This document shows positions 7,005 through 33,623 of a stretch of DNA of 64,000 nt, one piece after another. The notes beneath the pieces are model-generated. The model ran no database searches, had not been told where the DNA came from, and saw nothing but the letters and a program-made list of their open reading frames with translations. Every line of letters starts with the position of its first letter. Positions within the stretch are counted from its first letter, which is position 1. The position numbers were made by a program, and so were the translations under genes. Where the stretch lies: the NCBI GenBank assembly GCA_963793725.1, contig CAWCAY010000004.1:113295-177294 (forward strand), written 5' to 3'. The stretch is from an uncultured bacterium. GTDB lineage: Bacteria; JAUVQV01; CAWCAY01.

Positions 7005-8819
7005 ATGAGGAACAGGCGCTACCGCACCTTCATCACCGGCTACACCATCGCCGTCATCGTCCTGTCGGTCTTCTTCTGCTACACCCAGCCGAGCCTGCTG
7101 GAACGCATCGAGGAGCGGCTCTACGACCTTCGCTGCCGGGCGTTCCGGGGCACCACCACCCCTTCCGGGCGCATCGCCATCGTGGCCATCGACGACCGGA
7201 GCATCGCCGAGCTGGGGCGCTTCCCCTGGTCGAGGAGCGAGAACGCCCGGCTGGTCGACCAGGCGGCCAAGGCGGGCGCTCGGGCGGTGCTGTTCGACGT
7301 CGTCTTCCCCGAGTCGGAGTCGGCCGAGGCCGACGGGCGGTTCGCCGAGTCGATGCGCCGGTTCGGCAGGGTCACGCTGGCCACGGCCTTCGACGTGGCG
7401 CCCGACGGCAAGAGCCTGGTGAAGGTCGTCAACATCCCGGTTCTGGCCGGGGCTGCCCGGCGCGAGGCGCACATCAACATCCTGCCCGACGACGACGGCG
7501 TCCTGCGATGGAGCCGGCTGCTGGTCGAATACGAGGGGCGCTTCTTCCCGTCGATGGGGCTGGCCGCGGCCATGGACGCCCTGGGCGCGGACGACTTCAA
7601 GCCGGCCGGCTCGTCGGTGGTCGTCGGGCCGGTGACCGTGCCGACCACCTCCACCGGCTACCGCACCCGGTATCGCTACCTGATCACCTACAGCGGCGGG
7701 CCGGGGACCTTCAAGCGTTACTCGTTCGCCGACGTGGCCGCCGGCAGGCTGCCGCCGGGGGAGCTTGCCGGGAAGGTGCTGCTGGTCGGCTCGACCGCCC
7801 TGGCCGTCTACGACATGCGGGTCACCCCGTACTCGAACAACTCCCCCGGGGTGGAGGTCAACGCCAACGTTGCCGAGAGCATCCTCCAGCGCAACTTCAT
7901 CCAGCGGGGCACGGTCGAGGCGCTGATCGACCTGCTGGCCATCGTCGTGATCGCCATGGTGGTCGCCCTTTCGGCCGCCGGCCTGCGGGCGGGGGCCGCC
8001 TTCCCGATAGCCGTATCGATGATGGGGTTGTTCGCCGCCCTGGCCAGCGCCCTGTTCAGCCGGGGGATGTGGGTGTCGCTCGTCTACCCGCTCTTCGCCG
8101 GCGGCCTGGTGTACGCCGGGGTGTCCTACTTCCGCTTCATGCTGCTCGACCGCCGGGCGCGGGAGATCCGGACCATCTTCTCCAGCTATGTCTCCCGGAA
8201 GCTGGTCGAGCAACTGGTGGCCAATCCCGAACTGGCCCGGGTCGGCGGGGAGATCCGGGTGATCACCGTTGTATTCAGTGATGTCAAGAACTATACTTCG
8301 TACAGCGAGGGGCGCACGCCGCAGGAGGTAGTCAAGATACTCAACGAGTACCTGGCGGCAATGACCGCGGTCATCATGGACCATGACGGCACCCTCGACA
8401 AGTTCCTCGGGGACGGCATCCTGGCCTTCTGGGGGGCGCCCGTTCCGCAGGAGAAGCATGCCGAACTGGCTGTGCGCTGCGTGTTGGCCATGATCGAGCG
8501 GCTGGGCGAGCTGCAGAAGAAGTGGACCGCCGAGGGGAGCGAGCCATTGTCGTTCGGCGTCGGCATCAATACCGGCGAGGTGATCGTCGGCAACATCGGC
8601 GCCGAGGGGCTGAAGATGGAATACACGGTGATCGGCGACAACGTGAACCTAACCTACCGCATCCAGAACGAGAGCCGCGAGCACGACTGCCCGGCGATGA
8701 CCGAGTCGACATGGGAGCTGGTCAAGGACATTGTCGAAGCCGACCTGATCGGCCCGGTGACGGTCAAGGGGAAGACCAGGCCGGTGGTCATCTATGGACT
8801 GCGGGGGCTGAAACGATGA
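7005..8819 (+). CDS. CHASE2-domain class III adenylate cyclase
   Basis: CHASE2 (IAIVAIDDRSIAELGRFPWSR; PGVEVNAN), three TMs, cyclase motifs FSDVKNYTSYSE, DKFLGDGI, EYTVIGDNVNLTYR. K plus T/D specificity residues suggest ATP substrate. Confidence 0.93.
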   Translation: MRNRRYRTFITGYTIAVIVLSVFFCYTQPSLLERIEERLYDLRCRAFRGTTTPSGRIAIVAIDDRSIAELGRFPWSRSENARLVDQAAKAGARAVLFDVVFPESESAEADGRFAESMRRFGRVTLATAFDVAPDGKSLVKVVNIPVLAGAARREAHINILPDDDGVLRWSRLLVEYEGRFFPSMGLAAAMDALGADDFKPAGSSVVVGPVTVPTTSTGYRTRYRYLITYSGGPGTFKRYSFADVAAGRLPPGELAGKVLLVGSTALAVYDMRVTPYSNNSPGVEVNANVAESILQRNFIQRGTVEALIDLLAIVVIAMVVALSAAGLRAGAAFPIAVSMMGLFAALASALFSRGMWVSLVYPLFAGGLVYAGVSYFRFMLLDRRAREIRTIFSSYVSRKLVEQLVANPELARVGGEIRVITVVFSDVKNYTSYSEGRTPQEVVKILNEYLAAMTAVIMDHDGTLDKFLGDGILAFWGAPVPQEKHAELAVRCVLAMIERLGELQKKWTAEGSEPLSFGVGINTGEVIVGNIGAEGLKMEYTVIGDNVNLTYRIQNESREHDCPAMTESTWELVKDIVEADLIGPVTVKGKTRPVVIYGLRGLKR

Positions 8820-12523: not shown

Positions 12524-12559
12524 TCAGTTCCTTTCTTGGCAGCTGAGGAGGTGGAAGCC

Positions 12560-13172: not shown

Positions 13173-13538
13173 ATGAACGAAACCGCGGCGCGATTTGGCC
13201 CGGTGGGACTCTTCCTGGTCATCGCTCCGATCATGGGGATGATCTTCCTTTCCATCGGCGCCCTCTTCCGTCCCCACCGGCCGACCCGCGAGAAGTCGCT
13301 GCCGTACGAGTGCGGCATGGACAAGGCGGACGACCCCAACCGCCCCCACCACCCGCGGTTCGCCTTCATGGCCATGCTGCTGGTCCTGTTCGACGTCGAG
13401 GCGGCCTTCCTCGTCCCCTGGGCGCTGGGCGCTCGCGAGCTGGGGGTGCGGGGGCTGGTGGTGATGATCCTCTTCCTGGCGGTTCTCTTCGTCGGGTATG
13501 CCTACCTCTGGCGGCGGGGAGACCTGGAGTGGGACTGA
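13173..13538 (+). CDS. nuoA: NADH-quinone oxidoreductase subunit A
   Basis: [22 protein letters not shown]-terminal GDLEWD. Confidence 0.95.
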
Positions 13539-14011
13539 CCGACTACAAGACCCGCGAGGGGGGCGCCATCCTGACTTCCGTGGCCCAGGTGATCAACTGG
13601 TGCCGCGGGTCGTCGGTCTTTCCGCTCACCTACGGCCTGGCCTGCTGCGCCATCGAGATGATGCACACTTCCACGTCGCGCTACGACATCTCCCGCTTCG
13701 GTTCGGAGGCCTTCCGGCCGTCGCCGCGCCAGGCCGACATGATGATCGTGGCCGGAACGGTGACCCACAAGATGGCCCCGCACCTGCGCCGGCTGTACGA
13801 GCAGATGCCCGACCCCAAGGTGGTCCTGGCGATGGGGAGCTGCGCCACCACCGGCGGAGGCTTCCGCACCTACAGCACCCTCCAGGGGGTCGACCGGATC
13901 GTGCCGGTCGACGTCTACGTGGAAGGCTGTCCGCCGCGCCCGGAGAACCTGCTCAAGGGACTGATGGAGATCCAGGCGCTGATCAAGTCCCGAAAGACCC
14001 TCGGGTGGTGA
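13529..14011 (+). CDS. nuoB: NADH-quinone oxidoreductase subunit B
   Basis: GTG start overlapping nuoA; [36 protein letters not shown]. Confidence 0.95.
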
Positions 14012-14502
14012 GCTTGCCGGCCGACCCGAAGCGTCTGGCGGTGCTCGAGAACCTTGTATCCGGGCGGCTGGCGTCCATGGAGGCCAGCCTGGTCCTGTGC
14101 GGCGACGACCCCTGCCTCGACCTCTCCCCCGCCTGCTGGCGCGAGGCGGCCCGGGTGATCCGGGACGACCCCTCGGCGGGCTACACCGCCTTCTGCTGCC
14201 TGACCGGGATCGACCGCCACCCGCTGCAGCCCCGATTCGAGATTCTCTGCCACCTCCGCTCGCCGGACGCGAGGGACCGCCTGGTGCTGCGGACGCGCGT
14301 CCCGGAGTCGGCTCCGTCCGTCCCGTCGCTGGCCGGGATATGGAAGGGGGCCGAGTGGTACGAGCGCGAGGCCTTCGACCTCCTCGGCATCGACTTCGCC
14401 GGCCACCCCGACCTCCGGCGGATCATGATGCCGGCAGGCTACCAGGGGCACCCGCTGCGCAAGGACTTCCCCCTCGAAGGGGACACCGAGGGGGCCCGAT
14501 GA
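14008..14502 (+). CDS. nuoC: NADH-quinone oxidoreductase subunit C
   Basis: [23 protein letters not shown]...GHPLRKDFP; GTGA overlap with nuoB. Confidence 0.93.
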
Positions 14503-15668
14503 AAGGCCGGAACCTGACCATCAACATGGGGCCGCAGCACCCCAGCACCCACGGCGTGCTGCGCTTGGTGGTCGAGCTCGACGGCGAGAAGGTGGTCCGG
14601 GCGGTGCCCGACGTGGGCTTCCTGCACCGGGGGATCGAGAAGCTGGCCGAGCACCGCACCTGGGAGCAGTTCCTGCCGTTCACCGACCGGCTCGACTACG
14701 TGGCCGCGTCGGCCGGCAACCTGGCCTACTGCCTGGCGGTGGAGAAGCTGATGGCCATGGATGTGCCCCGCCGCGCCTCCTGGATCAGGGTCATGCTGGC
14801 CGAGGTGGCCCGCATCTCGTCGCACCTCATCTGGCTAGGCAGCAGTTGCCTCGACCTCGGCGCCATGGCCCCGATGTTCTACGCCTTCGCCGACCGGGAA
14901 CGAACCTGGGACCTGTTCGAGATGTCGGGCGGCGCCCGCATGACCCACTCCTTCATGCGCCTCGGGGGCCTGCGCAACGACCTCGACGCCGCCACGCTGC
15001 GGGCCTTCGGCGAATTCTGCGACTACTTCCCGTCGAGCATCGACCGGTTCGAGGAGCTGCTGACCAACAACCCGCTCTTCCGCTCCCGGACGATCGGCAT
15101 CGGCCGCATGGACGGGGCCGAGATGCTGAACCGGGGGGTGACCGGGCCGATAGCCCGCGCCTCGGGCGTCGACTGGGACCTGCGCCGCGACGATCCCTAT
15201 GCCGCCTACGGCGAGATGAGCTTCGAGGTGCCCCTCGGCCGGTCGGGCGACGTCTACGACCGCTACCTGGTCAGGATGGCCGAGATGCGCCAGAGCGTCA
15301 GGATCATCCGCCAGGTGCTCGACGGTCTGCCGGAGGGGGACTGGCGCTCGCGGGACCCCCGCTACGTCCGGCCGTCCAAGGAGGACGCCCTGAATTACGT
15401 AGAGGCGATGACCCGCTACTTCTACCTGGCCGCCGAGGGGCCCGCCCCGCCGGCCGGGGAAGCCTACGCCGCGGTCGAGGCCCCCAAGGGGGAGTTCGGG
15501 TTCTACGTCAAGAGCGACGGCACCGCCTACCCCGCCCGGGTCAAGATCAGGACGCCCAGCTTCGCCAACCTGGCCGCCCTGCCGGCCATGATCCAGGGCC
15601 TCTACCTGTCCGACGTGGTGGCCGTCATCGGCAGCATCGACATCGTCCTGGGAGAGGTGGACCGCTGA
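14499..15668 (+). CDS. nuoD: NADH-quinone oxidoreductase subunit D
   Basis: NMGPQHPSTHGVLRL, GFLHRGIEK, RLDY, EAPKGE, C-terminal IDIVLGEVDR. Confidence 0.96.
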   Translation: MKGRNLTINMGPQHPSTHGVLRLVVELDGEKVVRAVPDVGFLHRGIEKLAEHRTWEQFLPFTDRLDYVAASAGNLAYCLAVEKLMAMDVPRRASWIRVMLAEVARISSHLIWLGSSCLDLGAMAPMFYAFADRERTWDLFEMSGGARMTHSFMRLGGLRNDLDAATLRAFGEFCDYFPSSIDRFEELLTNNPLFRSRTIGIGRMDGAEMLNRGVTGPIARASGVDWDLRRDDPYAAYGEMSFEVPLGRSGDVYDRYLVRMAEMRQSVRIIRQVLDGLPEGDWRSRDPRYVRPSKEDALNYVEAMTRYFYLAAEGPAPPAGEAYAAVEAPKGEFGFYVKSDGTAYPARVKIRTPSFANLAALPAMIQGLYLSDVVAVIGSIDIVLGEVDR

Positions 15669-16138
15669 TGGCCACCCTCAAGCCGGGCACCGTCCGCCGC
15701 CTGGAGGAGCTCTTCGGCGACTTCCGGGACCGTCCCTCGGCCCTCATCCCGGCGCTCTACATCGTCCAGGAGGAGGAGAACCACCTGACCAGCGACAACC
15801 TGTCGGCCTTGGCCGACCTGCTCGACATGCCCAAGTCGTCGGTCTACGAGACGGCCACCTTCTACTCGCTCTACTCCTTCACCCTCCAGGGAAGGCACGT
15901 CATCCGCCTCTGCCGGAGCATCTGCTGCTGGCTCAACGGCAGCGACGCGCTGGAGGAGGCGGTCAGGGCTTCCTTGGGGATCGGCTTCGAGCAGGTCACC
16001 CCCGACGGGCGTTTCGTCCTGAAGCATTCCGAGTGCCTGGCGGCCTGCGACCGGGCGCCGGCCATCCAGGTGGACGACCGGATCTTCGGGCCGGTGACCC
16101 CGGCGGACATCCCCGGCATCCTGGAGGAGTTCCCGTGA
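15668..16138 (+). CDS. nuoE: NADH-quinone oxidoreductase subunit E
   Basis: ATFYSLY, CRSICC...ECLAAC 2Fe-2S ligands. Confidence 0.93.
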   Translation: MATLKPGTVRRLEELFGDFRDRPSALIPALYIVQEEENHLTSDNLSALADLLDMPKSSVYETATFYSLYSFTLQGRHVIRLCRSICCWLNGSDALEEAVRASLGIGFEQVTPDGRFVLKHSECLAACDRAPAIQVDDRIFGPVTPADIPGILEEFP

Positions 16139-17409
16139 CCGACCAGTTCTTCGTCGCCTACCGGGACATCGACGCGCCGGGGATAGGCGCCCTCGACGGC
16201 TACGAGCGCCACCGGGGGTACCAGGCGCTGCGCCAGGTGCTGACCACGATGACCCCCGAGGACGTCATCGAGACGATCAAGCGCTCCCGCCTCCACGGCC
16301 GGGGCGGGGCGGCCTTCCCGACCGGGCTCAAGTGGGAGTTCGTCTTCCAGGACCACAAGACCCCCAAGTACGTCGTCTGCAACGCCGAGGAGGGGGAGCC
16401 GGGGACCTTCAAGGACCGACCGATACTGGAGCGCGTCCCCCACCGGCTGGTGGAGGCGATGATCATCGCCGGGTACGCCATCGGCGCGCGGCGCGGGTAC
16501 GCCGTCTTCCGGGGAGAGTTCATCGGCCCGGCCGCCTCGGTCCGGAAGGCCATCGCCGAGGCAAAGGCAGCGGGGTACCTGGGCGAGAACATCCTCGGCT
16601 CCGGCTTCTCGTACGACCTCCAGGTCTACCGCACTGCCGGCGCCTACATCTGCGGCGAGGAGACGGCCCTGCTGGAGGCTCTCGAGGGACGCGCCGGGCT
16701 GGTCCGCATCCGGCCGCCGTTCCCGGTCAATGCCGGCCTCTGGGCGCGCCCGACGGTCCTCAACAACGTCGAGACCTTCGCCAACGTGCCCGACATCATC
16801 CTCAACGGGCCCGAGTGGTTCGCCCAGCGCGGGACGGACAAGTTCCCCGGGACGAAGATCTACTGCCTGTCGGGGCACGTCAACCGCCCCGGCATCTACG
16901 AGTTTCCCGCCGGCATCACGCTGCGGGAGCTGATCTACGAGCACGGCGGGGGCATCCCCGGAGGGCGGAAGATCAAGGCGGTCTTCCCCGGCGGGGCTTC
17001 CAGCTCCTGCCTGACGCCCGAGTCGCTCGACATCGTGCTCGACTATGCCTCGGTGGCCGTGGCCGGGTCGATGCTGGGCTCCGGGGCGATCATCGTGTGC
17101 GACGAGTCCACCTGCATGGTGGCCGCGGCGCGCCGGCTAGCCTCGTTCTTCAGGCACGAGTCGTGCGGCAAGTGCATCCCCTGCCGCGAGGGGACCGAGC
17201 ACATCCACCGGACCCTCACCCGGATCACCGAAGGGCAGGGGACGATGGGCGACGTCGACAACCTGGTGGACCTCTGCCAGATCATCCGCCAGACCGCTTT
17301 CTGCGGCCTGGGGCAGGCGGCCGTCAACCCCGTCCTGTCGACCGTCAAGCACTTCAGGCAGGAGTACGAGGACCACTGCTCCGGGAGGGGGTGCCGCCAT
17401 GGCGGCTGA
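16135..17409 (+). CDS. nuoF: NADH-quinone oxidoreductase subunit F
   Basis: GRGGAAFPTGLKW, EPGTFKDR, AYICGEETAL, ESCGKCIPCREG. Confidence 0.95.
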   Translation: MTDQFFVAYRDIDAPGIGALDGYERHRGYQALRQVLTTMTPEDVIETIKRSRLHGRGGAAFPTGLKWEFVFQDHKTPKYVVCNAEEGEPGTFKDRPILERVPHRLVEAMIIAGYAIGARRGYAVFRGEFIGPAASVRKAIAEAKAAGYLGENILGSGFSYDLQVYRTAGAYICGEETALLEALEGRAGLVRIRPPFPVNAGLWARPTVLNNVETFANVPDIILNGPEWFAQRGTDKFPGTKIYCLSGHVNRPGIYEFPAGITLRELIYEHGGGIPGGRKIKAVFPGGASSSCLTPESLDIVLDYASVAVAGSMLGSGAIIVCDESTCMVAAARRLASFFRHESCGKCIPCREGTEHIHRTLTRITEGQGTMGDVDNLVDLCQIIRQTAFCGLGQAAVNPVLSTVKHFRQEYEDHCSGRGCRHGG

Positions 17410-19787
17410 CAAGACCACCCTCCGCGTGACCATCGACGGCATCGCCCTCGACGTCGAGCGGGGGACCACCATCCTGACCGCCGCCCGCGAGGCCGGCGTG
17501 GAGATCCCCACCCTCTGCTGGCACCCCAAGGTGAGCATCATGGGCGCCTGCCGGGTCTGCCTTGTGGAAGTCGAGGGGCTCAACAAGCTGATCGCCGCCT
17601 GCCACACGCCGGTGGCCGAGGGGATGGTCGTGCGGACGGCCACCCCGCTGATCCGCAAGGTCCGCCAGACCCTGTTCGAGCTGCTGCTGGCCCGGCACCC
17701 GAGCGACTGCTGGGGGTGCGACAAGGGGGGATGGTGCGACCTGCAGGCGCTGGCCTTCAAGTTCGGCCCCGAGCGGCACCGCTTCGAGCTGCCGCGCGTG
17801 GCCAGCCGGGTCGAGGACCGAAGCCCCTTCGTCGAGCGGGATACCCGCAAGTGCGTCATGTGCCGCCGCTGCATCCGGGTCTGCCGCGAGGTCCGGGGGA
17901 CGTCGGTCTGGGGGGCCATGTACCGCGGCTTCGACAAGAAGATCTGCACCTTCTTCGAGCAACCGCTGGGGAGCGACTTCCACGACCCCTTCAACTGCGA
18001 GTTCTGCGGCTCGTGCATCGACATCTGCCCGGTGGGCGCGCTGACCGCCAAGCCGTCCAAGTACAAGACCAGGCCGTGGGAGGTCGAGACGGCCGAGACC
18101 TCCTGCCCCTTCTGCGGCGTCGGATGCCGGATGACCGCCCACCACCGCCGGGGCGTCGCTGGTCAAGACCACCCCGGTGAAGTACCCCGACGGCAACCAC
18201 TCCGACCTCTGCTTTCGGGGCCGCTTCGGGACGATCTACGCCGCCCACCCGTCGCGCCTGACCGGGCCCAGATGGGGACGGGGTGGCGGACCGGAGGGCA
18301 ATCCCGCCCGAGAAGGCCGCGGCCGCCCTGGCCGCCGTCCTGGCCTCGGCCGGCACGCCCGGCGCGGCCTTTGTCGGCGCCCAGTCGACCGAAGAGGAGA
18401 CGGCCGCCCTGGCCTCGCTGATGGCCTCGGGCTCGGTGCCCCACCCGGTCTTCGTGCTCGATTCGCGCGGGGAAGCCGAAACCGGCGAGCCCGCATGGCC
18501 GGCGGGAGTTCGGAGCGACACCGTCGACGAACTGGCGACCGCCCGGCGCATCATCCTGATCGGCCATGATTTCACCTTCCACCACCCGGTGGCCGGCATC
18601 CGGGTTCGCAAGGCCCTCCAGGCGGGCGGAACCCTGCTGCTGGTCGATCCGCTCGACACCTTGTTGGGGAGGCAGGCGGCGGCCTGGCTGCGCGTCCCAC
18701 CCTCGTCACAGGCGGCCCTGGTCGAGCAGCTCCGGGATGAGTTGGTTTCGGCCGGCGGGGCCTCCGCCCTGGCCGGCTTCCTCGAGTCGGTTCCCGGCGG
18801 CGGGGGCGAATCCGGCGGCAAGGCGGCCGAGTGGCTCAGGGGAGAGGGGCCGCTGACGCTGGTCATCCAGAAGATCCCCGGTCAGTCGGCCGCGGTGAAC
18901 AGTGCCGCGGCCCGCCTGCTCGAGGCTGCCGGCGGCGGGAGCGTGGTCTATCTCACGCCGGACGCCGACGCCTTCGGCGCTGCGGTGATTGCCAGGGGAG
19001 CGGGACCGGCCGTCGACGAACGGGCGCTGGAGCGATCTCCTCGCTTCGGACCGGCGCGTGCCGGCGGTCTTCTTCCTGCGGGCCGATCCGCTGGGCGAGA
19101 GCGCCCGGGCCGACCTCTGGGAGGCGCTGCGGCGCCGGTCGACCACCTGGGTGGTGTTCGACTCGTTCCCAACCCGCACCGCGACCCAGGCCGACTTGGT
19201 GCTGCCGGTGCCGCTGTTCACCGAGAACGGCGGGGAGCATCCGGGCGGCCGGCGGCCCCGGCTCGTTCACCCGCCTGTACCAGCCGCCGGCGGGCGTGCG
19301 CGACATGCTATCATGGGCCGGGAGTGCCGCGGCGGCGCTCGGCAAGGGCCTCGCCTGGGACGGCGGCGCGGCCGGCCTGGACGACATCCGGGCCAGGGGG
19401 AGGCGGGTCGGGCAGGCTCCCCCGGCGCCGGTTGCTCCGGCGGCGATCTGCCGGGGCGGGGAATCCTTCTGGCTCTTCGCGCGCTTCCACCGTTTCCCCG
19501 GCCATCGACTGGAACTGGCCGAGGCCCGGGCGGTCATCGGCCCGCAGGAGTGCCTGGAGGTGCACCCGGCCGACGCGGGAGCCATGGGCCTGCTGGACGG
19601 GGAACGGGTGACGGTCGAGGCAAGCGGCGCATCGGCGGCGTTCGCCGTGCGGGTGACGCCGCGCACGCCCCCGGGGTGCCTCTGCCTGCCGTTCGACCCG
19701 TCGTTCGGCGAGGTCATCCGATTCATGAGAGCCCTCGGGCCCGGTTTCGTCTCCGGCGGCGCGGCCGTATCCGCGAGAAAGGGGTGA
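17399..19787 (+). CDS. nuoG: NADH-quinone oxidoreductase subunit G; about four apparent frameshifts (near 18160, 18290, 19030, 19250)
   Basis: N-terminal Fe-S motifs (IPTLCWH, CRVCLVE, HPSDCWGCD, CVMCRRC, CEFCGSCIDICP, CPFCGVGC...CFRGRFG). Molybdopterin-fold remnants (TATQADLVLP; EVHPADA) are spread over successive frames. Confidence 0.85.
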
Positions 19788-19788
19788 G

Positions 19789-20265
19789 GTGATGTACAGG
19801 AAGGAACTGCTGCGGAAGATAACCTTCTTCGAGGGACTCTCCGACCAGGAACTCGACCAGCTGGTTGCCGCCACCGAAACCATCGTCTGCCAGAAGGGCG
19901 AGGCGGTCTACTCCGAGGACAAGGGGGGCTCGTCCCTGTTCATCATCGTCCGCGGGATGGTCCGGATCACCAAGGTGGTCACCTTCGACGAGAAGCAGAC
20001 CCTCACTCGTCTCCGCCCGGGCGAATTCTTCGGCGAGATGTCGTTCATCGATGGCCACCAGCACTCGGCCACCGCCGAGGCGGTCGAGGAGACCGAACTG
20101 GTCGTGCTGAGCCGCTCCAGGTTCGACCGGGTGGCGGAGGCGAACCCCGACCTGGCCTACAAGGTGATGATGCGCCTCGCGCTGCAGCTCTCGATGCTGC
20201 TGCGCAAGATGGACGAGCGGTTCGTGGAGATGGTCAACTACATATGGGGGAAGGGCAAGGTCTGA
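19789..20265 (+). CDS. Stand-alone cyclic-nucleotide-binding domain protein (no HTH) inside the nuo operon
   Basis: 158 aa; FFEGLSDQEL, GEAVYSE, LFIIVRGMV, PGEFFGEMSFIDGHQHSATAEA; stop overlaps the nuoH ATG. Confidence 0.9.
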   Translation: MMYRKELLRKITFFEGLSDQELDQLVAATETIVCQKGEAVYSEDKGGSSLFIIVRGMVRITKVVTFDEKQTLTRLRPGEFFGEMSFIDGHQHSATAEAVEETELVVLSRSRFDRVAEANPDLAYKVMMRLALQLSMLLRKMDERFVEMVNYIWGKGKV

Positions 20266-21222
20266 TGACAGTCGTCCTGCTGGCGGTCAAGATCCTGGTG
20301 CTGATCGTCCTGGTCCTGCTGGGGGCGGCCTACGTCCTCCTGGCCGAACGGCGCCTGCTGAGCCGCTTCCAGATGCGCATCGGGCCCAACCGGTGCGGCC
20401 CCCTGGGATTGGTCCAACCGCTGGCCGACGCGGCCAAGCTGATGGGCAAGGAGTTCCTCGTGCCCGACGGCGCCGACCGGTTCCTCTTCCGGCTGGCGCC
20501 GGTCCTGGCCATGGTGTCCGCCTTCGGCGTCTATGCTTTCATCCCCCTCGGGCCGGGGCTGATGATCTCCGACGTCAACACCGCGCTGCTGATGCTCCTG
20601 GCCGTCTCCTCCATGGGGGTCTACGCGATCGTCCTGGGGGGGACCTCCTCCAACAACTCCTTCTCCGCCATGGGCGCCCTGCGCTCGGCCGCCCAGATGA
20701 TCAGCTACGAGGTGTCGCTGGTGCTGGCCGCCATGGGCGCGGTGACCGGCGCCTCGTCGCTCAGCCTGCGGGAGATCGTCGACTACCAGAGCGAACTCCC
20801 GATGGTGGTCAGGGAGCCGGCCACTATCCTGTCGATGCTGGTCTTCTTCATCGCCGCCATGGCCGAGACCAACCGCACCCCGTTCGACCTGCCCGAAGCC
20901 GAGAGCGAACTGGTCGGCGGCTACCACACCGAGTACACCGCCATGGGCTTCGGCCTCTTCTTCCTGGGCGAGTACACCAACATCATCACCGTCTGCCTGC
21001 TGACCTCGATCCTCTTCCTGGGCGGCTGGCACGGGCCCGGCGCCCGACGGCATCTGGTGGCTGCTGGCCAAGGCGGTGCCGTTGATATTCGTCTTCATCT
21101 GGGCCCGGGGGACCATGCTCCGCTTCCGGTACGACAAGCTCATGGCCTTCGGGTGGAAGTTTCTGCTGCCGCTTTCGGCCGCGGCCCTGGTCCTGGAAGG
21201 GGCCTGGAAGGTGCTGAGGTAG
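20265..21222 (+). CDS. nuoH: NADH-quinone oxidoreductase subunit H; one apparent frameshift near 21045
   Basis: ERRLLSRFQMRIGPN, QPLADAAKL, ETNRTPFDLPEAESELVGGY. After the shift: RFRYDKLMAFGWKFLLPLS, stop TAG 21220-21222. Confidence 0.92.
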
Positions 21223-21228
21223 GCCGCC

Positions 21229-21642
21229 ATGGTGGGCGAAATCATCAAGGGCTTCTGGATCACGCTGCGGACCTTCTTCGGGCCGCCGATCACCGTCAGC
21301 TACCCGGAGGAGCGGCGCCCGGTTTCGCGGGGGTACCGCGGTGTCCCGTCGTTGCGCCGCCACCCGGACGGCCGCGAGCGGTGCGTGGCCTGCACGCTGT
21401 GCGTCAGAATCTGCCCGGCCCGCTGTATCGAAATGACCACCGGCGAGGGGCCAGACGGGGCCAAATACCCGTTCGAGTACCGGATCGACGCGGGGCGCTG
21501 CCTCTACTGTGGGCTGTGCGCCGAGGTCTGCCCGGTCGAGGCGGTGGTCCTTTCGTCGAGCTACGAGTTCACCGTCAGGGACCGCCGCGGCGCAATCCTC
21601 GACAAGGAGGCCCTGCTGGCCCTCGGGGAGAAGGAGCGATGA
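21229..21642 (+). CDS. nuoI: NADH-quinone oxidoreductase subunit I
   Basis: Two CxxCxxCxxxCP motifs (CVACTLCVRICP; CLYCGLCAEVCP). Confidence 0.95.
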   Translation: MVGEIIKGFWITLRTFFGPPITVSYPEERRPVSRGYRGVPSLRRHPDGRERCVACTLCVRICPARCIEMTTGEGPDGAKYPFEYRIDAGRCLYCGLCAEVCPVEAVVLSSSYEFTVRDRRGAILDKEALLALGEKER

Positions 21643-22142
21643 TCGCCGCCGTCTTCACGCTGCTGGCGCTGGCGGCCATCGGTTCGTCGCTGATGACCGT
21701 CCTTTCGAGGCGCATCTTCTACGGGGCGCTGTACCTGCTGGTGTCGATGCTGGCCACGGCCGGCATCTTCGTCCTGCTGGGGGCCGAGTTCCTGGCCGCC
21801 GTCCAGGTGCTCATCTACGCCGGCTCGGTCATGGTGCTGTTCGTCTTCGTGCTGATGACGGTCGGGTTCCGGGAGGAGAGCCGCGAGCCGCGGGGCCCCG
21901 GCTGGTGGGCCACGCTGCTGGGCCTGGGCGGGCTGATCCTGTGGCAGCTCATCGCCGCGGTGCGCTCGCTGGACGGGGGCGGGGAGTGCGCCGGGGTGCT
22001 GCCGACGCCCCCCGGGGACACCACCCGGGCCATGGCCGACATCCTCTTCGGCGAGCGGCTGGTCGCCCTGGAAGTCGTGTCTTTGCTGATCCTGGCGGTC
22101 ATGGTCGGCATCGCCGCCCTGCGGCGGGAGGAGCGCCGGTGA
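21639..22142 (+). CDS. nuoJ: NADH-quinone oxidoreductase subunit J
   Basis: AEFLAAVQVLIYAGSVMVLFVF. Confidence 0.93.
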   Translation: MIAAVFTLLALAAIGSSLMTVLSRRIFYGALYLLVSMLATAGIFVLLGAEFLAAVQVLIYAGSVMVLFVFVLMTVGFREESREPRGPGWWATLLGLGGLILWQLIAAVRSLDGGGECAGVLPTPPGDTTRAMADILFGERLVALEVVSLLILAVMVGIAALRREERR

Positions 22143-22450
22143 TCCCCCTGTCGTGGTGCCTCGTCCTGGGCGCGGTCCTGTTCGCCATCGGTTTCCTGGG
22201 CGTGGTCCTGCGGCGCAACGGCCTGTCGATGCTCCTGGCGGTCGAGATCATGGTCAACGCCGCCAACCTGAACCTGGTCGCGTTCGCCACGACCTGGGGG
22301 CTGATCGAGGGGCAGACCCTGGTCCTCTTCATCATCGGCGTCGAGGCGGCCGAACTGGCCGCGGCGCTCGCGGTGGTGACCGCCTGGCGGCGGCTCACCG
22401 GGGAGAACGAATTGGACGCCGCCCATTCCCTGAGGGACGAACATGAGTGA
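22139..22450 (+). CDS. nuoK: NADH-quinone oxidoreductase subunit K
   Basis: RRN...VEIMVNAANLNL...AAELA; about 100 aa, 3 TM. Confidence 0.93.
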   Translation: MIPLSWCLVLGAVLFAIGFLGVVLRRNGLSMLLAVEIMVNAANLNLVAFATTWGLIEGQTLVLFIIGVEAAELAAALAVVTAWRRLTGENELDAAHSLRDEHE

Positions 22451-23918
22451 CGGCTTCCCGCTGCTGACGCTGTTGCTCTTCCTGCCGCTTGCGGGCGGGC
22501 TGGCGGTGGCCTGCATTCCCGGGCGCTTGGAAAGGCTGGCCACGGGGGCGGCGACGGCCGTCTCGCTGGCGGCCCTGGGGCTCGGCCTGGCGGCGGCCGG
22601 CCGTTTCGACGCCGCCTCGGGCATCGGGCCGGTCGAGCGGTTCGACTGGATCCCGCGCTTCGGCATCGCCTTCCACCTCGGGCTCGACGGGCTGTCGCTG
22701 GCCCTGGTCCTGCTGACGCTCTTCCTGGTCCCCTTCGCCCTGTCGGGCGCCGCCGCAGGGTCGGCCGGCGGGCGCAGCCGTTTCCTCGGCCTGATGCTCG
22801 CCCTGGAAACCGGGCTCCTGGGCGTCTTCATGGCCCGCGACCTGGTCCTCTTCTACCTCTTCTGGGAGACGATGCTCATCCCGGCCTACTTCCTGCTGGG
22901 CGTGTGGGGCGGGCGCCACCGGGTCCGGGCGACCACCCGGTTCATGATCTACACCATAGCCGGCAGCCTGTTGATGCTGGTCGGCATCATGGTCCTGTAC
23001 GTCCGCCAGACCGCCCAGGGCGGGTGGGGGACGTTCGACATGGAGGTCCTGGCGGGGTCCGCCGCCGGCGCCGCCGCCCCCTGGGCGTTCCTCCTCTTCG
23101 CCGTCGCCTTTGCCGTCAAGACGCCCGTCTTCCCTTTCCACTCCTGGCTGGCCGACGCCTACGTCGAGGCGCCGACCGGGCTGTCGATGCTGATGTCGGG
23201 AGTGATGGCCAAGATGGGCGTCTACGGCTTCCTGCGCGTCTGCCTGCCCCTCTTCCCCGGCGAGGCCCGCCGCTACGCCGCCGTGGCCATGGCCCTGGCG
23301 CTGGCCGGCGCCCTGTGGGGAGCCCTGATGGCCCTCGCCCAGCGCGACCTCAAGCGGCTGATCGCCTGGTCGAGCTTCTCGCACATGGGCTTCATCACGC
23401 TGGGCGTCTTCAGCCTGACCGAGTCCGGGATCACCGGGGCCTCCTTCCAGATGGTGAGCCACGGCCTTACGACCGGCGGGCTCTTCCTGGCGGCCTCGTG
23501 CCTCTCCCGGGGCGGTGGCGGGATCGAATCGCTGGCCGCCGGCCCGGCGGGGGGCCGCCGCGGCGGGGCGCTGCTGACCTTCTTCGCCCTGGCCTCCCTG
23601 GGCATGCCCGGCACGGCCTCGTTCATCGGCGAGTTCCTGATCGTCGCCGGGGCCTTCAGGGCCGGCGCCTGGACGGGTCTCGTCGCCTGCATGGCGGTGG
23701 CCATGGGCGCCTGGTACATGCTCCGCCTGCTTCGCCGGGGCGTCTACCAGCCGCCCAAGCCGGTGGTTCACGGGGAGGTCGATCTGACCGCTCGGGAAAC
23801 GGCGCTCCTGGTCGTCCTGGGCATTGCCCTGGTCGTCCTGGGCGTGTTCCCCGGCGTCCTGACGGCCATCCTGCACGCCGCCACCGCGGGCATCCTGGCT
23901 GCCGTGGGAGGGGCCTGA
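22443..23918 (+). CDS. nuoM: NADH-quinone oxidoreductase subunit M
   Basis: DWIPRFGI, LGLDGLS, FYLFWETMLIP, VKTPVFPFHSWL, KMGVYG, SHMG, GEFL; 491 aa, no long C-terminal transverse helix. Confidence 0.9.
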   Translation: MSDGFPLLTLLLFLPLAGGLAVACIPGRLERLATGAATAVSLAALGLGLAAAGRFDAASGIGPVERFDWIPRFGIAFHLGLDGLSLALVLLTLFLVPFALSGAAAGSAGGRSRFLGLMLALETGLLGVFMARDLVLFYLFWETMLIPAYFLLGVWGGRHRVRATTRFMIYTIAGSLLMLVGIMVLYVRQTAQGGWGTFDMEVLAGSAAGAAAPWAFLLFAVAFAVKTPVFPFHSWLADAYVEAPTGLSMLMSGVMAKMGVYGFLRVCLPLFPGEARRYAAVAMALALAGALWGALMALAQRDLKRLIAWSSFSHMGFITLGVFSLTESGITGASFQMVSHGLTTGGLFLAASCLSRGGGGIESLAAGPAGGRRGGALLTFFALASLGMPGTASFIGEFLIVAGAFRAGAWTGLVACMAVAMGAWYMLRLLRRGVYQPPKPVVHGEVDLTARETALLVVLGIALVVLGVFPGVLTAILHAATAGILAAVGGA

Positions 23919-23920
23919 CC

Positions 23921-25315
23921 GTGCACGCCTACCTGCCGGAAGTCGTCGTCGCCGCCGGCGCCCTGGCCATCCTCGCCTGGGGCGCCATCCGGCCGTCACG
24001 CACCGGCCCGGGGGTCTCCTTCATGGCCCTGGCGGCGCTGACCGCCGGGGTGCTGACCATGATCATGCCCGGCCTCGCGGGCGGGGGGGGCGCGTCGCTG
24101 CCGGGCGGGGCCTTCATCTACCGGGTGACCATCCTGTTCGCCGCCTCGCTGACCGTCTTCCTGTCCCACGAGTATGTGCTCGTGTCGCTGATGCCGGCCA
24201 CCGAATACTACGTCCTGCTGCTCCTCTCCACGGTGGGCATGATGCTGGTCTCCGGGGCCGCCGACTATCTGGTCTTCTTCCTCGGCCTCGAGTTGATGAG
24301 CCTGCCGCTGGTGCTGATGTGCGCCATCGGCAGGGGATCGTCGGCCCCCAAGGAGGCGGCGGTCAAGTACCTCCTCTACGGCCTGACCGCGTCGGCGGTG
24401 CTGCTGTTCGGTTTGACCATGATCTACGGCATCCAGGGCTCGTGGGAACTGGATGGAGGGGATTTCAGCGCCGGTGGGGCCGCCGCGGCCGTCGCCCTGG
24501 TGCTGGTCCTGGTGGGCCTGAGCTTCAAGATGGGCCTGGTCCCGTTCCACATGTGGATGCCCGACGTCCTGTCCGGCAGCCCGGCGCCGGTGGCCTCGTT
24601 CATCGCCACCGGGTCCAAGGTGGCCGTGTTCGCCTTTGCCGGGCGGGCGCTCACAACCTCGCTGGGGGATCTTTCGCCGGTCTGGTTCACGATACTCCAA
24701 GTGACGGCAGTGGCCTCGATGCTGTGGGGGAACCTGGCCGCCCTGGCGCAGCGCGACGTCAAGAGGCTCATGGCCTACTCGGGGGTCGCCCACGCCGGCT
24801 ACCTGGCGGTGGCTTTGCTGGCCGCCGACCGCCTGCCGGAGGAAAGCCTGGCCAGCCTCGGGTTCTACCTCTTCGCCTACGTCTTCCTGACCGCCGGCTG
24901 CTTCGCCCTCTTCGCGGCCATCGAGACGCCGGGCGAGCGGTTGACGACCGACCGGCTCGCCGGCCTGGGCCGCCGGCACCCGGTTGTCGGCGCGGCCATG
25001 GCCCTGTTCCTGTTCGGCCTGGCCGGCCTGCCGCCGACCTCCGGCTTCATGGCCAAGTTCTGGATCTTCCTGGCGGCCGTCCACGCCGACCTGACCTGGC
25101 TGGCCGTCGTCGGCGTCGTCGCCTCGGCCATCGGCGCCGTCTACTACCTCCGCCTGGTGCGGATCATCTTCATGGACCAGCCTTCCGGTGCGACCCCCCC
25201 GGTGGTGCCCGGAATCGGCGTCTTCGCCCTCCTTCTGGCCGTGCTGGCCACCATCTGGCTGGGAGTGATGCCCGGCCGCTTCCTGGAGTTCATCCGCTTC
25301 ACCACCCATCCATGA
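23921..25315 (+). CDS. nuoN: NADH-quinone oxidoreductase subunit N
   Basis: GLELMSLPL, EAAVKY, FKMGLVPFHMWMPDV, KRLMAYSGVAHAGY, GLPPTSGFMAKF. Confidence 0.92.
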   Translation: MHAYLPEVVVAAGALAILAWGAIRPSRTGPGVSFMALAALTAGVLTMIMPGLAGGGGASLPGGAFIYRVTILFAASLTVFLSHEYVLVSLMPATEYYVLLLLSTVGMMLVSGAADYLVFFLGLELMSLPLVLMCAIGRGSSAPKEAAVKYLLYGLTASAVLLFGLTMIYGIQGSWELDGGDFSAGGAAAAVALVLVLVGLSFKMGLVPFHMWMPDVLSGSPAPVASFIATGSKVAVFAFAGRALTTSLGDLSPVWFTILQVTAVASMLWGNLAALAQRDVKRLMAYSGVAHAGYLAVALLAADRLPEESLASLGFYLFAYVFLTAGCFALFAAIETPGERLTTDRLAGLGRRHPVVGAAMALFLFGLAGLPPTSGFMAKFWIFLAAVHADLTWLAVVGVVASAIGAVYYLRLVRIIFMDQPSGATPPVVPGIGVFALLLAVLATIWLGVMPGRFLEFIRFTTHP

Positions 25316-26199: not shown

Positions 26200-26216
26200 T
26201 CTGCCCTGTCTAAGAT
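26188..26216 (+). promoter_or_regulatory. Putative sigma70 promoter for pilB
   Basis: TTGACA (26188-26193), 17 bp, TAAGAT (26211-26216), overlapping the aroE 3' end. Confidence 0.6.
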
Positions 26217-26267
26217 GCAGAAGCTGGGAACAAGGGCACTTGGCGTCGATAATCGTGGAGCGGAATC

Positions 26268-28061: not shown

Positions 28062-28064
28062 ACG

Positions 28065-29194
<1,130 letters not shown>

Positions 29195-29243
29195 ATGACG
29201 CCGCGCGGCGAGACCAGGATTCGCTGAGCACAAGGAGAACGAC

Positions 29244-30452: not shown

Positions 30453-30471
30453 TCCGGGCCGGCCTGGCGGC

Positions 30472-32166: not shown

Positions 32167-32169
32167 GGT

Positions 32170-33537: not shown

Positions 33538-33623
33538 CCGCGGCGCGAACCGCGGAGTCTCACGCCGGCCGAATCGGGGTATAATCCGGAATGCTGGCCA
33601 AAGGCATCGATGAGGAGACGGAC

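What the first reader, a model, noticed from the sequence alone, without database searches (positions are those of the whole stretch)
19789..20265. Stand-alone cNMP-binding protein translationally embedded in the complex I operon
Seen: a 158-aa CAP/CNB-only protein starts 1 nt after the nuoG stop and its TGA overlaps the nuoH ATG, so it sits at the junction of the peripheral-arm and membrane-arm genes. Its phosphate-binding cassette reads FGEMSFIDGHQHSAT, with His where CRP-type proteins have Arg (PRSA). An intact adenylate cyclase lies about 11 kb upstream on the same strand. Established: it is not among the 14 core subunits. Inference: a cyclic-nucleotide-responsive accessory subunit or assembly regulator of complex I, possibly with a non-cAMP ligand. 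This is the strongest candidate for an undescribed system here.
Basis: partly seen in the sequence, partly recalled or inferred. Interest (0 to 1): 0.8.

Follow-up and report, generated by a model that had tools for sequence, protein, structure and literature searches.

The report
cNMP-binding protein in complex I operons
A small protein with a cyclic-nucleotide-sensor fold is encoded between the nuoG and nuoH genes of respiratory complex I, and its family has stayed next to the NADH-oxidising genes (NuoE/F/G) in many distant uncultured bacteria, so it is probably an undescribed ligand-sensing partner of that module.

Summary
A 157-aa protein (ATG 19792 to TGA 20265) has a single cNMP-binding domain (PF00027, E = 2.9e-21). 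Its start lies 4 nt after the nuoG stop, and its stop overlaps the nuoH start (TGATG).

It is not a random insertion. Every relative at 62-96% identity whose context I could see has the same nuoG-X-nuoH arrangement. Members at only 32-43% identity also lie next to NuoE/F/G genes: usually between G and H, sometimes between D and E or before E, and in one clade between NuoF and a selenocysteine formate dehydrogenase. Across distinct family members, 21 of 22 are linked to this module, against 3 of 189 other CNB loci (p about 1e-24). Pairwise identities of the protein track those of NuoE and NuoF (r = 0.93-0.94).

The ligand-site residues G81, E82, S84 and S92 are invariant. The canonical phosphate-binding Arg is His in 75 and Arg in 46 of 121 members. 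The window's clade has no Arg in the cassette at all.

Best reading: a ligand-gated accessory partner of the NADH-dehydrogenase module. This rests on genomic inference only. Ligand binding and physical association are untested, and the link to the upstream adenylate cyclase is not supported. I found no description of it in the literature I could search.

The parts
19792..20265 (+). Stand-alone CNB-domain protein, 157 aa (the alternative GTG start at 19789 would give 158 aa). It belongs to a family linked to the NuoE/F/G genes.
   Evidence: PF00027 E = 2.9e-21. Homologues all 153-160 aa. AF2 model pLDDT 88.5, with a beta-barrel and a long C-helix. Foldseek best match is the T. thermophilus CAP effector domain, rmsd 1.7 A over 135 residues.
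20029..20073 (+). Phosphate-binding cassette F80-T94 (FGEMSFIDGHQHSAT). G81, E82, S84, S92 and A93 are canonical. H91 replaces the canonical Arg, and H89 replaces the family's usual Arg.
   Evidence: Alignments. Residue counts over 121 family members. Alignment of His to the Arg of PKG and PKA chains.
20146..20244 (+). Long C-terminal helix (residues 119-151) carrying the family signature LR-x-M-[DN]-x-x-[FY]-x-x-M-x-x-Y-x-[WF]. R138 and M140 are invariant. It is a candidate lid or partner interface.
   Evidence: Secondary structure of model m22d8929946ef. Conservation.
19780..19794 (+). Junction of nuoG and the CNB gene: aggggTGAggtgATG. The purine-rich Shine-Dalgarno-like stretch includes the nuoG stop, and the ATG follows 4 nt later.
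   Evidence: The same aaaggggTGAnnnnATG layout is seen in L001, L003 and L009.
20263..20267 (+). TGATG overlap of the CNB stop with the nuoH start.
   Evidence: The sequence AAGGTCTGAtg is identical in L001, L003, L009 and L010.
13173..13538 (+). nuoA
   Evidence: tblastn with L003 proteins.
13535..14011 (+). nuoB
14041..14502 (+). nuoC
14499..15668 (+). nuoD
15668..16138 (+). nuoE (NADH-oxidising module)
16135..17409 (+). nuoF (NADH-oxidising module, NADH/FMN site), intact
17399..19787 (+). nuoG (NADH-oxidising module). It reads in five frame segments in this assembly, with changes near 18155, 18250, 19036 and 19232.
   Evidence: Pfam on the pieces, tblastn, and DNA alignment to L003 showing single-base indels.
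20265..21222 (+). nuoH, with one frame change near 21035 (GGG against GG in L003).
21229..21642 (+). nuoI
21639..22142 (+). nuoJ
22139..22450 (+). nuoK
22443..23918 (+). nuoM (TIGR01972, 450 bits). It follows nuoK directly, with no nuoL.
23921..25315 (+). nuoN (TIGR01770, 355 bits)
7005..8819 (+). CHASE2 plus class III adenylate cyclase. This is context only; a link to the CNB gene is not supported.
   Evidence: Pfam. No homologue in the flanks of the relatives' nuo loci.

Best explanation
The gene encodes a member of a conserved, previously unannotated family of stand-alone CNB-fold proteins. In effect each is a CRP effector domain with its long C-helix but no DNA-binding domain. The family is dedicated to the NADH-oxidising module NuoE/F/G.

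Proposed mechanism. The protein is made together with NuoG and NuoH by translational coupling. It docks on the NuoE/F/G module through the conserved face of its C-helix and tail. It binds a small phosphate-bearing ligand in its intact binding pocket, most likely a cyclic nucleotide such as cAMP. The usual CNB hinge-and-lid movement of the C-helix then changes NADH:acceptor activity, or changes how the module docks. This would put complex I, and in another clade an NAD-linked formate dehydrogenase, under direct second-messenger or metabolite control.

Shown: the gene is real and under purifying selection. The family is large. Its association with NuoE/F/G genes is nearly exclusive and old. The ligand-pocket residues are conserved.

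Inferred: physical binding to NuoE/F/G, the identity of the ligand, and the direction of any regulation.
For: 1. Domain and fold. PF00027 E = 2.9e-21. AF2 pLDDT 88.5. Foldseek best matches are CRP-type effector domains and stand-alone CNB structures.
2. Close relatives. P0004, P0006, P0007 and P0010 (62-92% identity) all show nuoABCDEFG-CNB-HIJK-MN, with identical coupled junctions.
3. Distant members. P0208, P0214, P0210, P0266 and P0164 (34-42% identity) lie before nuoH, and between nuoG and nuoH wherever the upstream side is on the contig, in operons with different membrane arms. P0166 and P0177 lie between NuoF and a Sec-FdhA.
4. Independent sample. A DNA-pattern scan of metagenomes gave 120 CNB loci. 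The 11 loci that score at least 150 bits on the family HMM all have NuoE/F/G/H neighbours, including D|E and pre-E positions. Only 2 of the other 109 have NuoE/F/G/H neighbours, and none is between nuoG and nuoH.
5. Control. 80 CNB loci with a canonical Arg cassette have no nuo context. Fisher test on 21/22 against 3/189 gives p = 1e-24.
6. Co-divergence. Pairwise identity of the CNB protein correlates with NuoE (r = 0.94), NuoF (0.93) and NuoH (0.92) over 12-13 operons, and the clade structure is the same. The CNB protein is as conserved as the core subunits.
7. Pocket. G81, E82, S84, R138 and M140 are invariant, S92 is Ser in 120 of 121 and A93 is Ala in 118. Position 91 is His or Arg only. 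The beta2-beta3 Gly is kept in 94 of 121. This Gly is co-conserved with cAMP binding according to PMC2246266.
8. dN/dS is 0.16-0.47.
Against: No experiment or structure shows binding to NuoE/F/G or to any ligand. A multimer prediction could not be run. The window's clade has His at both basic cassette positions (GHQHSAT), so it lacks the Arg that contacts the cyclic phosphate in all characterised cNMP receptors. In PKA, Arg to Lys alone lowers cAMP affinity about ten-fold (PMC2246266). One close cluster (P0013, 50% identity) lies outside any nuo operon, next to a histidine kinase and TrkA/TrkH, so the protein can exist unlinked. The correlation of identities is similar for NuoH and NuoD, so it does not single out the partner subunit. 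Well-studied complexes I work without such a protein. In this window nuoG and nuoH are frameshifted; if those frameshifts are real, the operon here would be decaying. Contexts were sampled, not surveyed exhaustively, and the literature search covers open-access papers only.
Confidence: 0.5

Rival explanations
1. It is an assembly or maturation factor for the NuoE/F/G module, for example holding NuoF or NuoG during FMN or Fe-S insertion or during docking. It would not be a subunit of the finished enzyme, and the CNB pocket might bind a cofactor-like nucleotide rather than a signal.
For: The genomic evidence is the same as for the best explanation: exclusive, ancient linkage with NuoE/F/G in both complex I and soluble formate dehydrogenase operons. 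The only thing these enzymes share is the flavin and Fe-S module.
Against: The tight coupling on both sides (4-nt gap, TGATG overlap) is conserved in the window clade. This suggests production in step with the structural subunits. The invariant canonical pocket (G-E...[R/H]-S-A) and the CRP-like C-helix are hallmarks of allosteric sensors, not of known Fe-S or flavin chaperones. No homology to known maturation factors was found.
Confidence: 0.2
2. It is a sensor subunit as in the best explanation, but its ligand is not a cyclic nucleotide. Candidates are a nucleoside, an NAD(H)-derived compound or another metabolite. This would apply at least to the window's clade, which has no Arg in the cassette.
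For: H89 and H91 replace both basic residues in the window clade only. CNB folds with a non-Arg residue at this position bind other ligands or have an unclear ligand: heme in CooA, chlorophenolacetate in CprK, unknown in PDZ-GEF (PMC2246266). From my own knowledge, trypanosomatid PKA regulatory subunits that lack the Arg bind nucleosides.
Against: His and Arg alternate among close family members in the same operon position, for example L100 (His) against L096 and L103 (Arg). This argues for one phosphate-type ligand class across the family. G-E and S-A are invariant. Heme ligation is unlikely because 46 of 121 members have Arg there.
Confidence: 0.2
3. It is a free cNMP receptor or buffer that acts on other targets. 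It would be encoded in the operon only so that it is co-expressed with respiration genes, with no physical contact to complex I.
For: P0013 and P0012 (50% identity) are encoded away from nuo, beside a histidine kinase and TrkA/TrkH. The C-helix motif RLRxxDExF is also seen in some unrelated stand-alone CNB proteins (L067, L089).
Against: Co-expression alone does not explain why the gene keeps to NuoE/F/G through operon rearrangements (G|H, D|E, pre-E, F|FdhA) and across different enzymes. It also does not explain the co-divergence with r = 0.93-0.94.
Confidence: 0.08
4. It is a chance ORF, a recent insertion, or a truncated CRP/FNR regulator pseudogene.
For: High-GC DNA yields many spurious ORFs. 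Source databases label relatives as 'Crp/Fnr family transcriptional regulator'.
Against: The Pfam hit is strong. GC3 is 0.90. There is purifying selection. At least 120 clusters of 153-168 aa share the same ends. No member has an HTH domain, and the context is conserved.
Confidence: 0.01

Closest known systems
Effector (cAMP-binding) domain of CRP/CAP-type regulators, e.g. Thermus thermophilus CAP (PDB 4ev0), M. tuberculosis CRP, C. glutamicum GlxR
   Same: Same fold, including the long C-helix. Foldseek TM 0.77-0.80, rmsd 1.7 A over 135 residues, 31% identity to 4ev0. G-E and S-A of the cassette are conserved.
   Different: No C-terminal HTH DNA-binding domain: the protein ends 6 residues after the C-helix. 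The cassette has His in place of Arg. It has a family-specific C-terminal motif, M[DN]xx[FY]xxMxxYx[WF]G. It is encoded inside nuo or fdh operons rather than as a free-standing regulator.
Stand-alone CNB-domain proteins solved by structural genomics: Mfla_1926 (3gyd), Gmet_1532 (3mdp), the S. coelicolor N-terminal domain (2pqq)
   Same: Single-domain CNB proteins of similar size and fold.
   Different: Only 22-29% identical. No function or partner is known for them. I did not examine their genomic context, and I know of no link to complex I.
Supernumerary subunits and extra reading frames of bacterial complex I: Nqo15 and Nqo16 of T. thermophilus, homologues of NDUFS4/S6/A12 in Paracoccus, and the unidentified reading frames inside the Paracoccus nqo cluster (all from my own knowledge)
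   Same: They are precedents for extra, lineage-specific proteins attached to the peripheral arm, and for non-core genes interspersed in nuo/nqo operons.
   Different: None has a CNB fold or a ligand-sensor architecture. The protein here hits only PF00027. None is known to follow NuoEF into formate dehydrogenase operons.
Enzymes or channels controlled directly by a CNB domain: mycobacterial cAMP-dependent acetyltransferase Pat, the MlotiK1 and SthK channels, PKA and PKG
   Same: The same kind of logic is proposed: cNMP binding moves the C-helix or lid and switches an attached effector. These are the best sequence and fold matches in PDB and NCBIfam.
   Different: In those systems the CNB domain is fused to its effector, or is a dedicated regulatory subunit of a kinase. 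Here it is a separate polypeptide whose proposed effector is a respiratory flavin and Fe-S module.
CNB-domain gene in the group 3b [NiFe]-hydrogenase cluster of Rhodococcus equi (PMC13332983)
   Same: Another CNB-domain protein encoded inside a gene cluster for a redox enzyme.
   Different: It involves a different enzyme. I did not compare sequences, and no function is assigned there either.

Membership tests
Cyclic nucleotide-binding domain superfamily (Pfam PF00027) | Profile match above the curated threshold | tested here: met
   75.7 bits against a cutoff of 27.5, residues 34-118.
Cyclic nucleotide-binding domain superfamily (Pfam PF00027) | Eight-stranded beta-barrel followed by B/C helices | tested here: met
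   By prediction only. AF2 pLDDT 88.5. Foldseek probability 1.00 to many cNMP-bound CNB structures.
Cyclic nucleotide-binding domain superfamily (Pfam PF00027) | Gly-Glu of the cassette (contact to the ribose 2'-OH) and Ser/Thr-Ala after the basic residue | tested here: met
   G81, E82 and S84 are invariant, S92 is Ser in 120 and A93 is Ala in 118 of 121 family members, and all are present in the window protein.
Cyclic nucleotide-binding domain superfamily (Pfam PF00027) | Cassette Arg (PKA Arg209) that binds the cyclic phosphate | tested here: not met
   The window protein has His91 and also His89. Across the family the position is His in 75 and Arg in 46 of 121.
Cyclic nucleotide-binding domain superfamily (Pfam PF00027) | Gly in the beta2-beta3 loop, co-conserved with cAMP binding (PKA Gly169; PMC2246266) | tested here: inconclusive
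   G45-G46 are present, and position 46 is Gly in 94 of 121. The exact structural equivalence was not checked on coordinates.
Cyclic nucleotide-binding domain superfamily (Pfam PF00027) | Measured binding of cAMP or cGMP | not testable with these tools
   Needs purified protein (DSF or ITC).
CRP/FNR family transcription factors | C-terminal winged-HTH DNA-binding domain | tested here: not met
   The protein is 157 aa and ends just after the C-helix. Only PF00027 is found. All NCBIfam CRP/FNR models score far below their cutoffs and match only their N-terminal parts.
CRP/FNR family transcription factors | CNB-like effector domain with a long C-helix (dimerisation helix) | tested here: met
   Helix 119-151. 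Best fold match is the effector domain of 4ev0. Dimerisation itself was not tested.
Respiratory complex I: core subunits NuoA-N | Homology to one of the 14 core subunit families | tested here: not met
   Pfam and NCBIfam give only CNB-type matches.
Respiratory complex I: accessory (supernumerary) subunit | Encoded in and co-inherited with the nuo operon | tested here: met
Respiratory complex I: accessory (supernumerary) subunit | Present in the purified or assembled enzyme | not testable with these tools
   Needs co-purification or cryo-EM.
PKA-R / Epac / CNG-type cNMP effectors | CNB domain fused to, or paired with, its known effector (kinase, GEF or channel) | tested here: not met
   It is a single-domain protein. 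No such effector gene is adjacent.

The most novel reading that the evidence does not exclude
A fifteenth, ligand-gated subunit of bacterial complex I. A stand-alone CNB receptor sits on NuoE/F/G and lets a cyclic nucleotide, or in the His-His clade perhaps a different or pH-dependent ligand, switch NADH oxidation on or off directly. The same device is reused on NAD-linked formate dehydrogenase. This would be, as far as I know, the first second-messenger receptor built into a prokaryotic respiratory complex.
Probability: 0.35. Interest if true: 0.85.

Novelty: new variant of a known kind. Interest (0 to 1): 0.74.

Why it matters
Complex I is generally treated as regulated in bacteria by transcription and substrate supply. 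A conserved sensor protein tied to its NADH-oxidising module would add a direct post-translational control point. It would also give an experimentally tractable handle: a small soluble protein plus the NuoEFG subcomplex. It could explain how anaerobes with many class III cyclases couple signalling to NADH turnover, because the same family also accompanies an NAD-linked formate dehydrogenase. It gives a name and a testable role to over a hundred sequence clusters now annotated as 'Crp/Fnr family transcriptional regulator' although they have no DNA-binding domain. The carrier operons also have unusual membrane arms (no NuoL, short NuoL, or extra antiporter-like subunits) that are of bioenergetic interest in their own right.

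Tried and rejected
It returned only CNB proteins with a canonical Arg cassette, 27-41% identical, with no nuo context.
2. Taxonomy of the window. The window has no rRNA, only one tRNA. Cluster look-ups gave no organism names for close relatives. A NuoF search showed no named relative above 58% identity. More distant carriers are labelled Deltaproteobacteria or Thermodesulfobacteriota MAGs.
4. Viral contigs: the pattern scan gave 0 hits.
5. Link to the upstream adenylate cyclase: no cyclase homologue in the relatives' nuo flanks. I set the link aside for lack of synteny evidence, with the caveat that the flanks are short.
6. Heme (CooA-like) or Fe-S (FNR-like) sensing. There is no conserved Cys, and the His position is Arg in 38% of members. 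Rejected as a general mechanism.
7. A truncated transcription factor. Rejected, because all members share the same 153-168 aa length and C-terminus.
8. Using the correlation of identities to pick the partner subunit. The values for NuoE, F, H and D are all 0.91-0.94, so this does not discriminate.
10. Literature. Seven searches looked for CNB genes in nuo or fdh operons or for a His-type cassette, and two looked for complex I that naturally lacks NuoL. None found a prior description.
Full report
**The observation**

The ORF reported at 19789-20265 (+) is there. It encodes a protein with one Pfam cNMP_binding domain (PF00027, 75.7 bits, E = 2.9e-21) and nothing else. NCBIfam has no dedicated model for it. 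It matches only the effector-domain parts of CRP/FNR, encapsulin 2B and bacteriocin-transport CNB models, all far below their cutoffs.

The nuoG stop is TGA 19785-19787. Every homologue starts MY..., so ATG 19792 is the likely start. That gives 157 aa and a 4-nt gap. The stop TGA 20263-20265 overlaps the nuoH ATG as TGATG.

The cassette reads FGEMSFIDGHQHSAT. In profile alignments His91 falls on the Arg of PKA, PKG and CRP chains. The CHASE2 plus class III cyclase at 7005-8819 is also real.

**The operon**

Using proteins from a relative that is 92% identical in this protein (L003), the operon reads nuoA-B-C-D-E-F-G-CNB-H-I-J-K-M-N, followed by aroE and pilB/T/C. The two antiporter-like genes are NuoM (TIGR01972, 450 bits) and NuoN (TIGR01770, 355 bits). 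There is no nuoL in the operon or anywhere in the 64 kb.

In this assembly nuoG reads in five frame segments and nuoH in two. The differences from L003 are single-base indels, one of them in a G run. Similar breaks occur in pilT. I read these as probable assembly errors but cannot prove it. The CNB gene itself is intact.

**It is a real gene**

GC3 is 0.90. dN/dS against four relatives is 0.16-0.47. The protein is as conserved as the core subunits. Against L003 it is 92% identical, compared with NuoF 94%, NuoH 93%, NuoD 88% and NuoG about 70-90%. Against L001 it is 65%, compared with NuoD 62% and NuoG 52%.

**Close relatives**

A word-indexed search of 5.8 billion proteins found only 13 clusters at 50% identity or more, all 157-159 aa. 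For the four with readable flanks (P0004, P0006, P0007, P0010; 62-92% identity) the context is identical: nuoABCDEFG-CNB-HIJK-MN-aroE, again with no nuoL.

The junctions are conserved to the base. The layout aaaggggTGAnnnnATG is shared by L001, L003 and L009. The sequence AAGGTCTGAtg is shared by those three and L010.

There is one exception. P0013 (50% identity) lies between a histidine kinase and a 93-aa gene followed by TrkA and TrkH, on short contigs.

**The wider family**

An exhaustive HMMER search with the clade profile, against cluster representatives of about 15 billion proteins, showed many full-length single-domain relatives of 150-163 aa. Aligned together, they share the cassette FFGE[ML]SFxDGxxHSATA and a C-terminal signature LRxM[DN]xxFxxMxxYxW.

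A profile search with that alignment returned 1016 proteins at E of 1e-20 or better. The best 120 are all stand-alone proteins of 153-168 aa. [quoted passage not shown]

I looked up seven of these, at 34-42% identity to the window protein:
- P0208, P0214, P0210 and P0266 lie between nuoG and nuoH. P0164 lies directly before nuoH at the end of its locus. Their operons have different membrane arms: full-length NuoL, short NuoL plus an 83-aa protein plus extra antiporter-like subunits, or the order M-N-L.
- P0166 and P0177 lie between a 598-aa NuoF-like protein and a gene for a NuoG-like N-terminus joined to a molybdopterin enzyme. That gene is interrupted by an in-frame TGA within NCARV-TGA-HAPTVAGL. 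This is the classic selenocysteine site of formate dehydrogenase. No membrane-arm genes are present.

**An independent sample and controls**

I wrote a degenerate DNA pattern for the His-type cassette and scanned the metagenome collection. It returned 120 loci, all encoding CNB domains.

Scoring them with an HMM built from the family alignment split them cleanly. Eleven loci score 150-200 bits, match full-length, are stand-alone and carry the tail motif. The rest score below 135 bits. Most of those are 220-290 aa CRP-type proteins with an added C-terminal domain.

All eleven high scorers have NuoE/F/G/H neighbours. Most are G-CNB-H. L211 is nuoA-B-C-D-CNB-E-F. L131 is CNB-E-F at the head of an operon. 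L220 is CNB followed by a NuoG-like gene. Of the other 109 loci, only L192 (a full nuoG-N operon) and L224 (a distant nuoF hit) have NuoE/F/G/H neighbours. In L192 and L197 a different CNB protein follows nuoN (for L192).

The 80 loci from the earlier genome scan all have the canonical Arg cassette and no nuo context.

Counting distinct family members, 21 of 22 are next to NuoE/F/G genes, against 3 of 189 other CNB loci (Fisher p = 1e-24).

**Co-divergence**

Over 12-13 operons, pairwise identity of the CNB protein correlates with that of NuoE (r = 0.94), NuoF (0.93), NuoH (0.92), NuoD (0.91) and NuoG (0.82). The same four clades appear in both matrices.

So the gene has travelled with these enzymes since NuoF sequences were about 45-55% identical, while its position within the operon changed. 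The only genes common to all arrangements are those of the NADH-oxidising module. That is why I place the functional link there, rather than at the junction of the peripheral and membrane arms.

**The protein**

With the 23-sequence alignment, AlphaFold2 gives a confident model (pLDDT 88.5). It has the CNB beta-barrel, the short cassette helix, and one long C-terminal helix spanning residues 119-151.

Foldseek places it closest to the effector domain of T. thermophilus CAP (4ev0; rmsd 1.7 A over 135 residues, 31% identity). Next come the stand-alone CNB protein Mfla_1926 (3gyd), other CRPs, and the CNB domains of MlotiK1, SthK, PKA and PKG. In effect it is a CRP without its DNA-binding domain.

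Counts over 121 top family members:

| Position | Residues |
|---|---|
| G81, E82, S84 | invariant |
| S92 | Ser 120 |
| A93 | Ala 118 |
| R138, M140 (C-helix) | invariant |
| 91 (canonical Arg) | His 75, Arg 46 |
| 89 | Arg 105, His 12 |

The 12 sequences with His at position 89 are exactly the window's clade.

His and Arg at position 91 alternate between close relatives in the same operon position: L100 has His, while L096 and L103 have Arg. I take this to mean the pocket is functional and binds a phosphate-type ligand throughout the family.

But the window's clade, with GHQHSAT and no Arg at all, is the most deviant. It could have altered or pH-dependent affinity. Kannan et al. (PMC2246266) describe Arg209 as the phosphate contact, natural His or Met at this site in PDZ-GEF, and a heme-ligating His in CooA. 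Heme ligation cannot be general here because 38% of members have Arg.

**Mechanism**

What is shown:
- a conserved gene family under purifying selection;
- nearly exclusive and ancient association with NuoE/F/G genes;
- translational coupling in the window clade;
- an intact CNB pocket and a CRP-like C-helix.

What is inferred:
- the protein binds the NuoE/F/G module through the conserved stripe on its C-helix and tail;
- it binds a cyclic nucleotide or related ligand;
- the usual CNB hinge-and-lid movement changes NADH:acceptor turnover or module docking.

I put this at about 0.5. Rivals, in order:
1. an assembly factor for the module (0.2);
2. the same sensor role with a non-cNMP ligand (0.2);
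3. a free receptor that is merely co-expressed (0.08);
4. an artefact (0.01).

The upstream cyclase is a plausible source of cAMP in general terms. Nothing ties it to this gene: no cyclase homologue is in the relatives' visible flanks, although those flanks are short.

**Comparison with what is known**

By membership, the protein is a CNB-superfamily protein. One defining feature, the cassette Arg, is not met in this copy. It is not a CRP/FNR regulator, because it has no HTH domain. It is not a core Nuo subunit. It is not homologous to the known bacterial supernumerary subunits, because Pfam finds only the CNB domain.

In proposed function, it most resembles CNB modules that switch an attached effector, such as Pat, the MlotiK1 and SthK channels, or the PKA regulatory subunit. 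Here the module is a separate polypeptide and its candidate effector is a respiratory flavin and Fe-S module.

Seven full-text searches looked for a CNB gene in nuo or fdh operons or for a His-type cassette, and two looked for complex I that naturally lacks NuoL. None found a description. The nearest item is a CNB gene noted, without an assigned function, in a hydrogenase 3b cluster of Rhodococcus equi. The searchable library holds open-access papers only, so a description elsewhere cannot be excluded.

**Limits**

- Contexts were sampled: 12 look-ups and one capped scan. This is not a census.
- Most carriers I saw are metagenome contigs or MAGs; I identified no isolate.
- The window's own lineage could not be named.

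**Verdict**

This is a new variant of a known kind: a stand-alone CNB sensor dedicated to the NADH-dehydrogenase module. Interest 0.74.

Noticed in passing
window 22139-25315; also L001, L003, L009, L010: The nuo operon goes straight from nuoK to nuoM and nuoN. There is no nuoL in the operon or anywhere in the 64-kb window, and the same holds for all four relatives of this clade. Two literature searches found no description of complex I operons that naturally lack NuoL. Whether nuoL lies elsewhere in these genomes is unknown.
   Followed up: partly
window near 18155, 18250, 19036 and 19232 (nuoG), near 21035 (nuoH), near 28600 (pilT): Several conserved genes read in more than one frame. Against L003 the differences are single-base indels, and one is GGG against GG. 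This is probably assembly or sequencing error rather than pseudogenes, but it is unproven. The CNB gene is intact.
   Followed up: partly
L098 6001-9171; L106 7001-10174; L099, L107, L108: A 153-aa subfamily of the same CNB family sits between a 598-aa NuoF-like protein and a formate dehydrogenase catalytic subunit with a NuoG-like N-terminus. That gene has an in-frame TGA at NCARV-U-HAPTVAGL, the selenocysteine site. Gene callers split it into 355-aa and 537-aa products.
   Followed up: partly
L192 9098-9613; L197 466-897: A different stand-alone CNB protein, also with a His-type cassette (GEMSLIDGEPHSATAIA in L192, where it is 171 aa) but without the family tail motif, lies directly after nuoN. 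The L192 operon has no gene between nuoG and nuoH. This may be a second, separate pairing of a CNB protein with complex I.
   Followed up: partly
L092, L096 and L229 (after nuoK); L103 (after nuoN): The membrane arms of carrier operons vary. Some have a short NuoL-like protein (488-514 aa, with a weak or faint Proton_antipo_N match) followed by a conserved 82-84-aa hydrophobic protein. Some have up to four antiporter-like subunits (L229). One has the order M-N-L (L103). L100 has a full-length 725-aa NuoL.
   Followed up: no
L006 716-1189 (also L007, L008): The only family member I saw outside a NuoE/F/G context (P0013, 50% identical to the window protein, cassette GLPHSAT) lies between a Tll0287-like histidine kinase and a 93-aa gene followed by TrkA and TrkH.
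   Followed up: no
window 7005-12955: Upstream of nuoA lie three genes. First, a CHASE2 plus class III adenylate cyclase (7005-8819). Second, a protein of about 1,230 aa with NHL repeats, fibronectin type III domains, a transglutaminase-like domain and TPR repeats (to 12523). Third, a conserved 132-aa ORF (12560-12955) with no Pfam or NCBIfam match. The last two are also upstream of nuoA in L003.
   Followed up: partly
window 25312-34106: Directly after nuoN come aroE, pilB, pilT, pilC, a sensor kinase and a sigma-54 response regulator (PilS/PilR-like). After these comes a PF04008 'adenosine specific kinase' family protein (33585-34106). The aroE-pilB linkage to the nuo operon is conserved in L001, L003 and L009.
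   Followed up: no
L162 5003-7907: In this metagenome locus the order is nuoD-E-F-G-CNB, then nuoI and nuoH on the opposite strand, then nuoJ-K-L on the first strand again. This is either an inversion or a misassembly.
   Followed up: no
L211 1-6900: Here the order is nuoA-B-C-D-CNB-E-F. What follows is not nuoG but further NuoE-like and NuoF-like (HydC/HydB-type) genes, so it looks like a hybrid of a nuo head and a multimeric hydrogenase-type cluster.
   Followed up: no
L010 1318-6477: In this relative the gene caller gives a fused NuoD-NuoE product (494 aa) and splits nuoG into 368-aa and 430-aa products. These are either real rearrangements or assembly errors like those in the window.
   Followed up: no
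window 640-724 (-): One tRNA gene is the only Rfam match at gathering threshold in the whole window.
   Followed up: no
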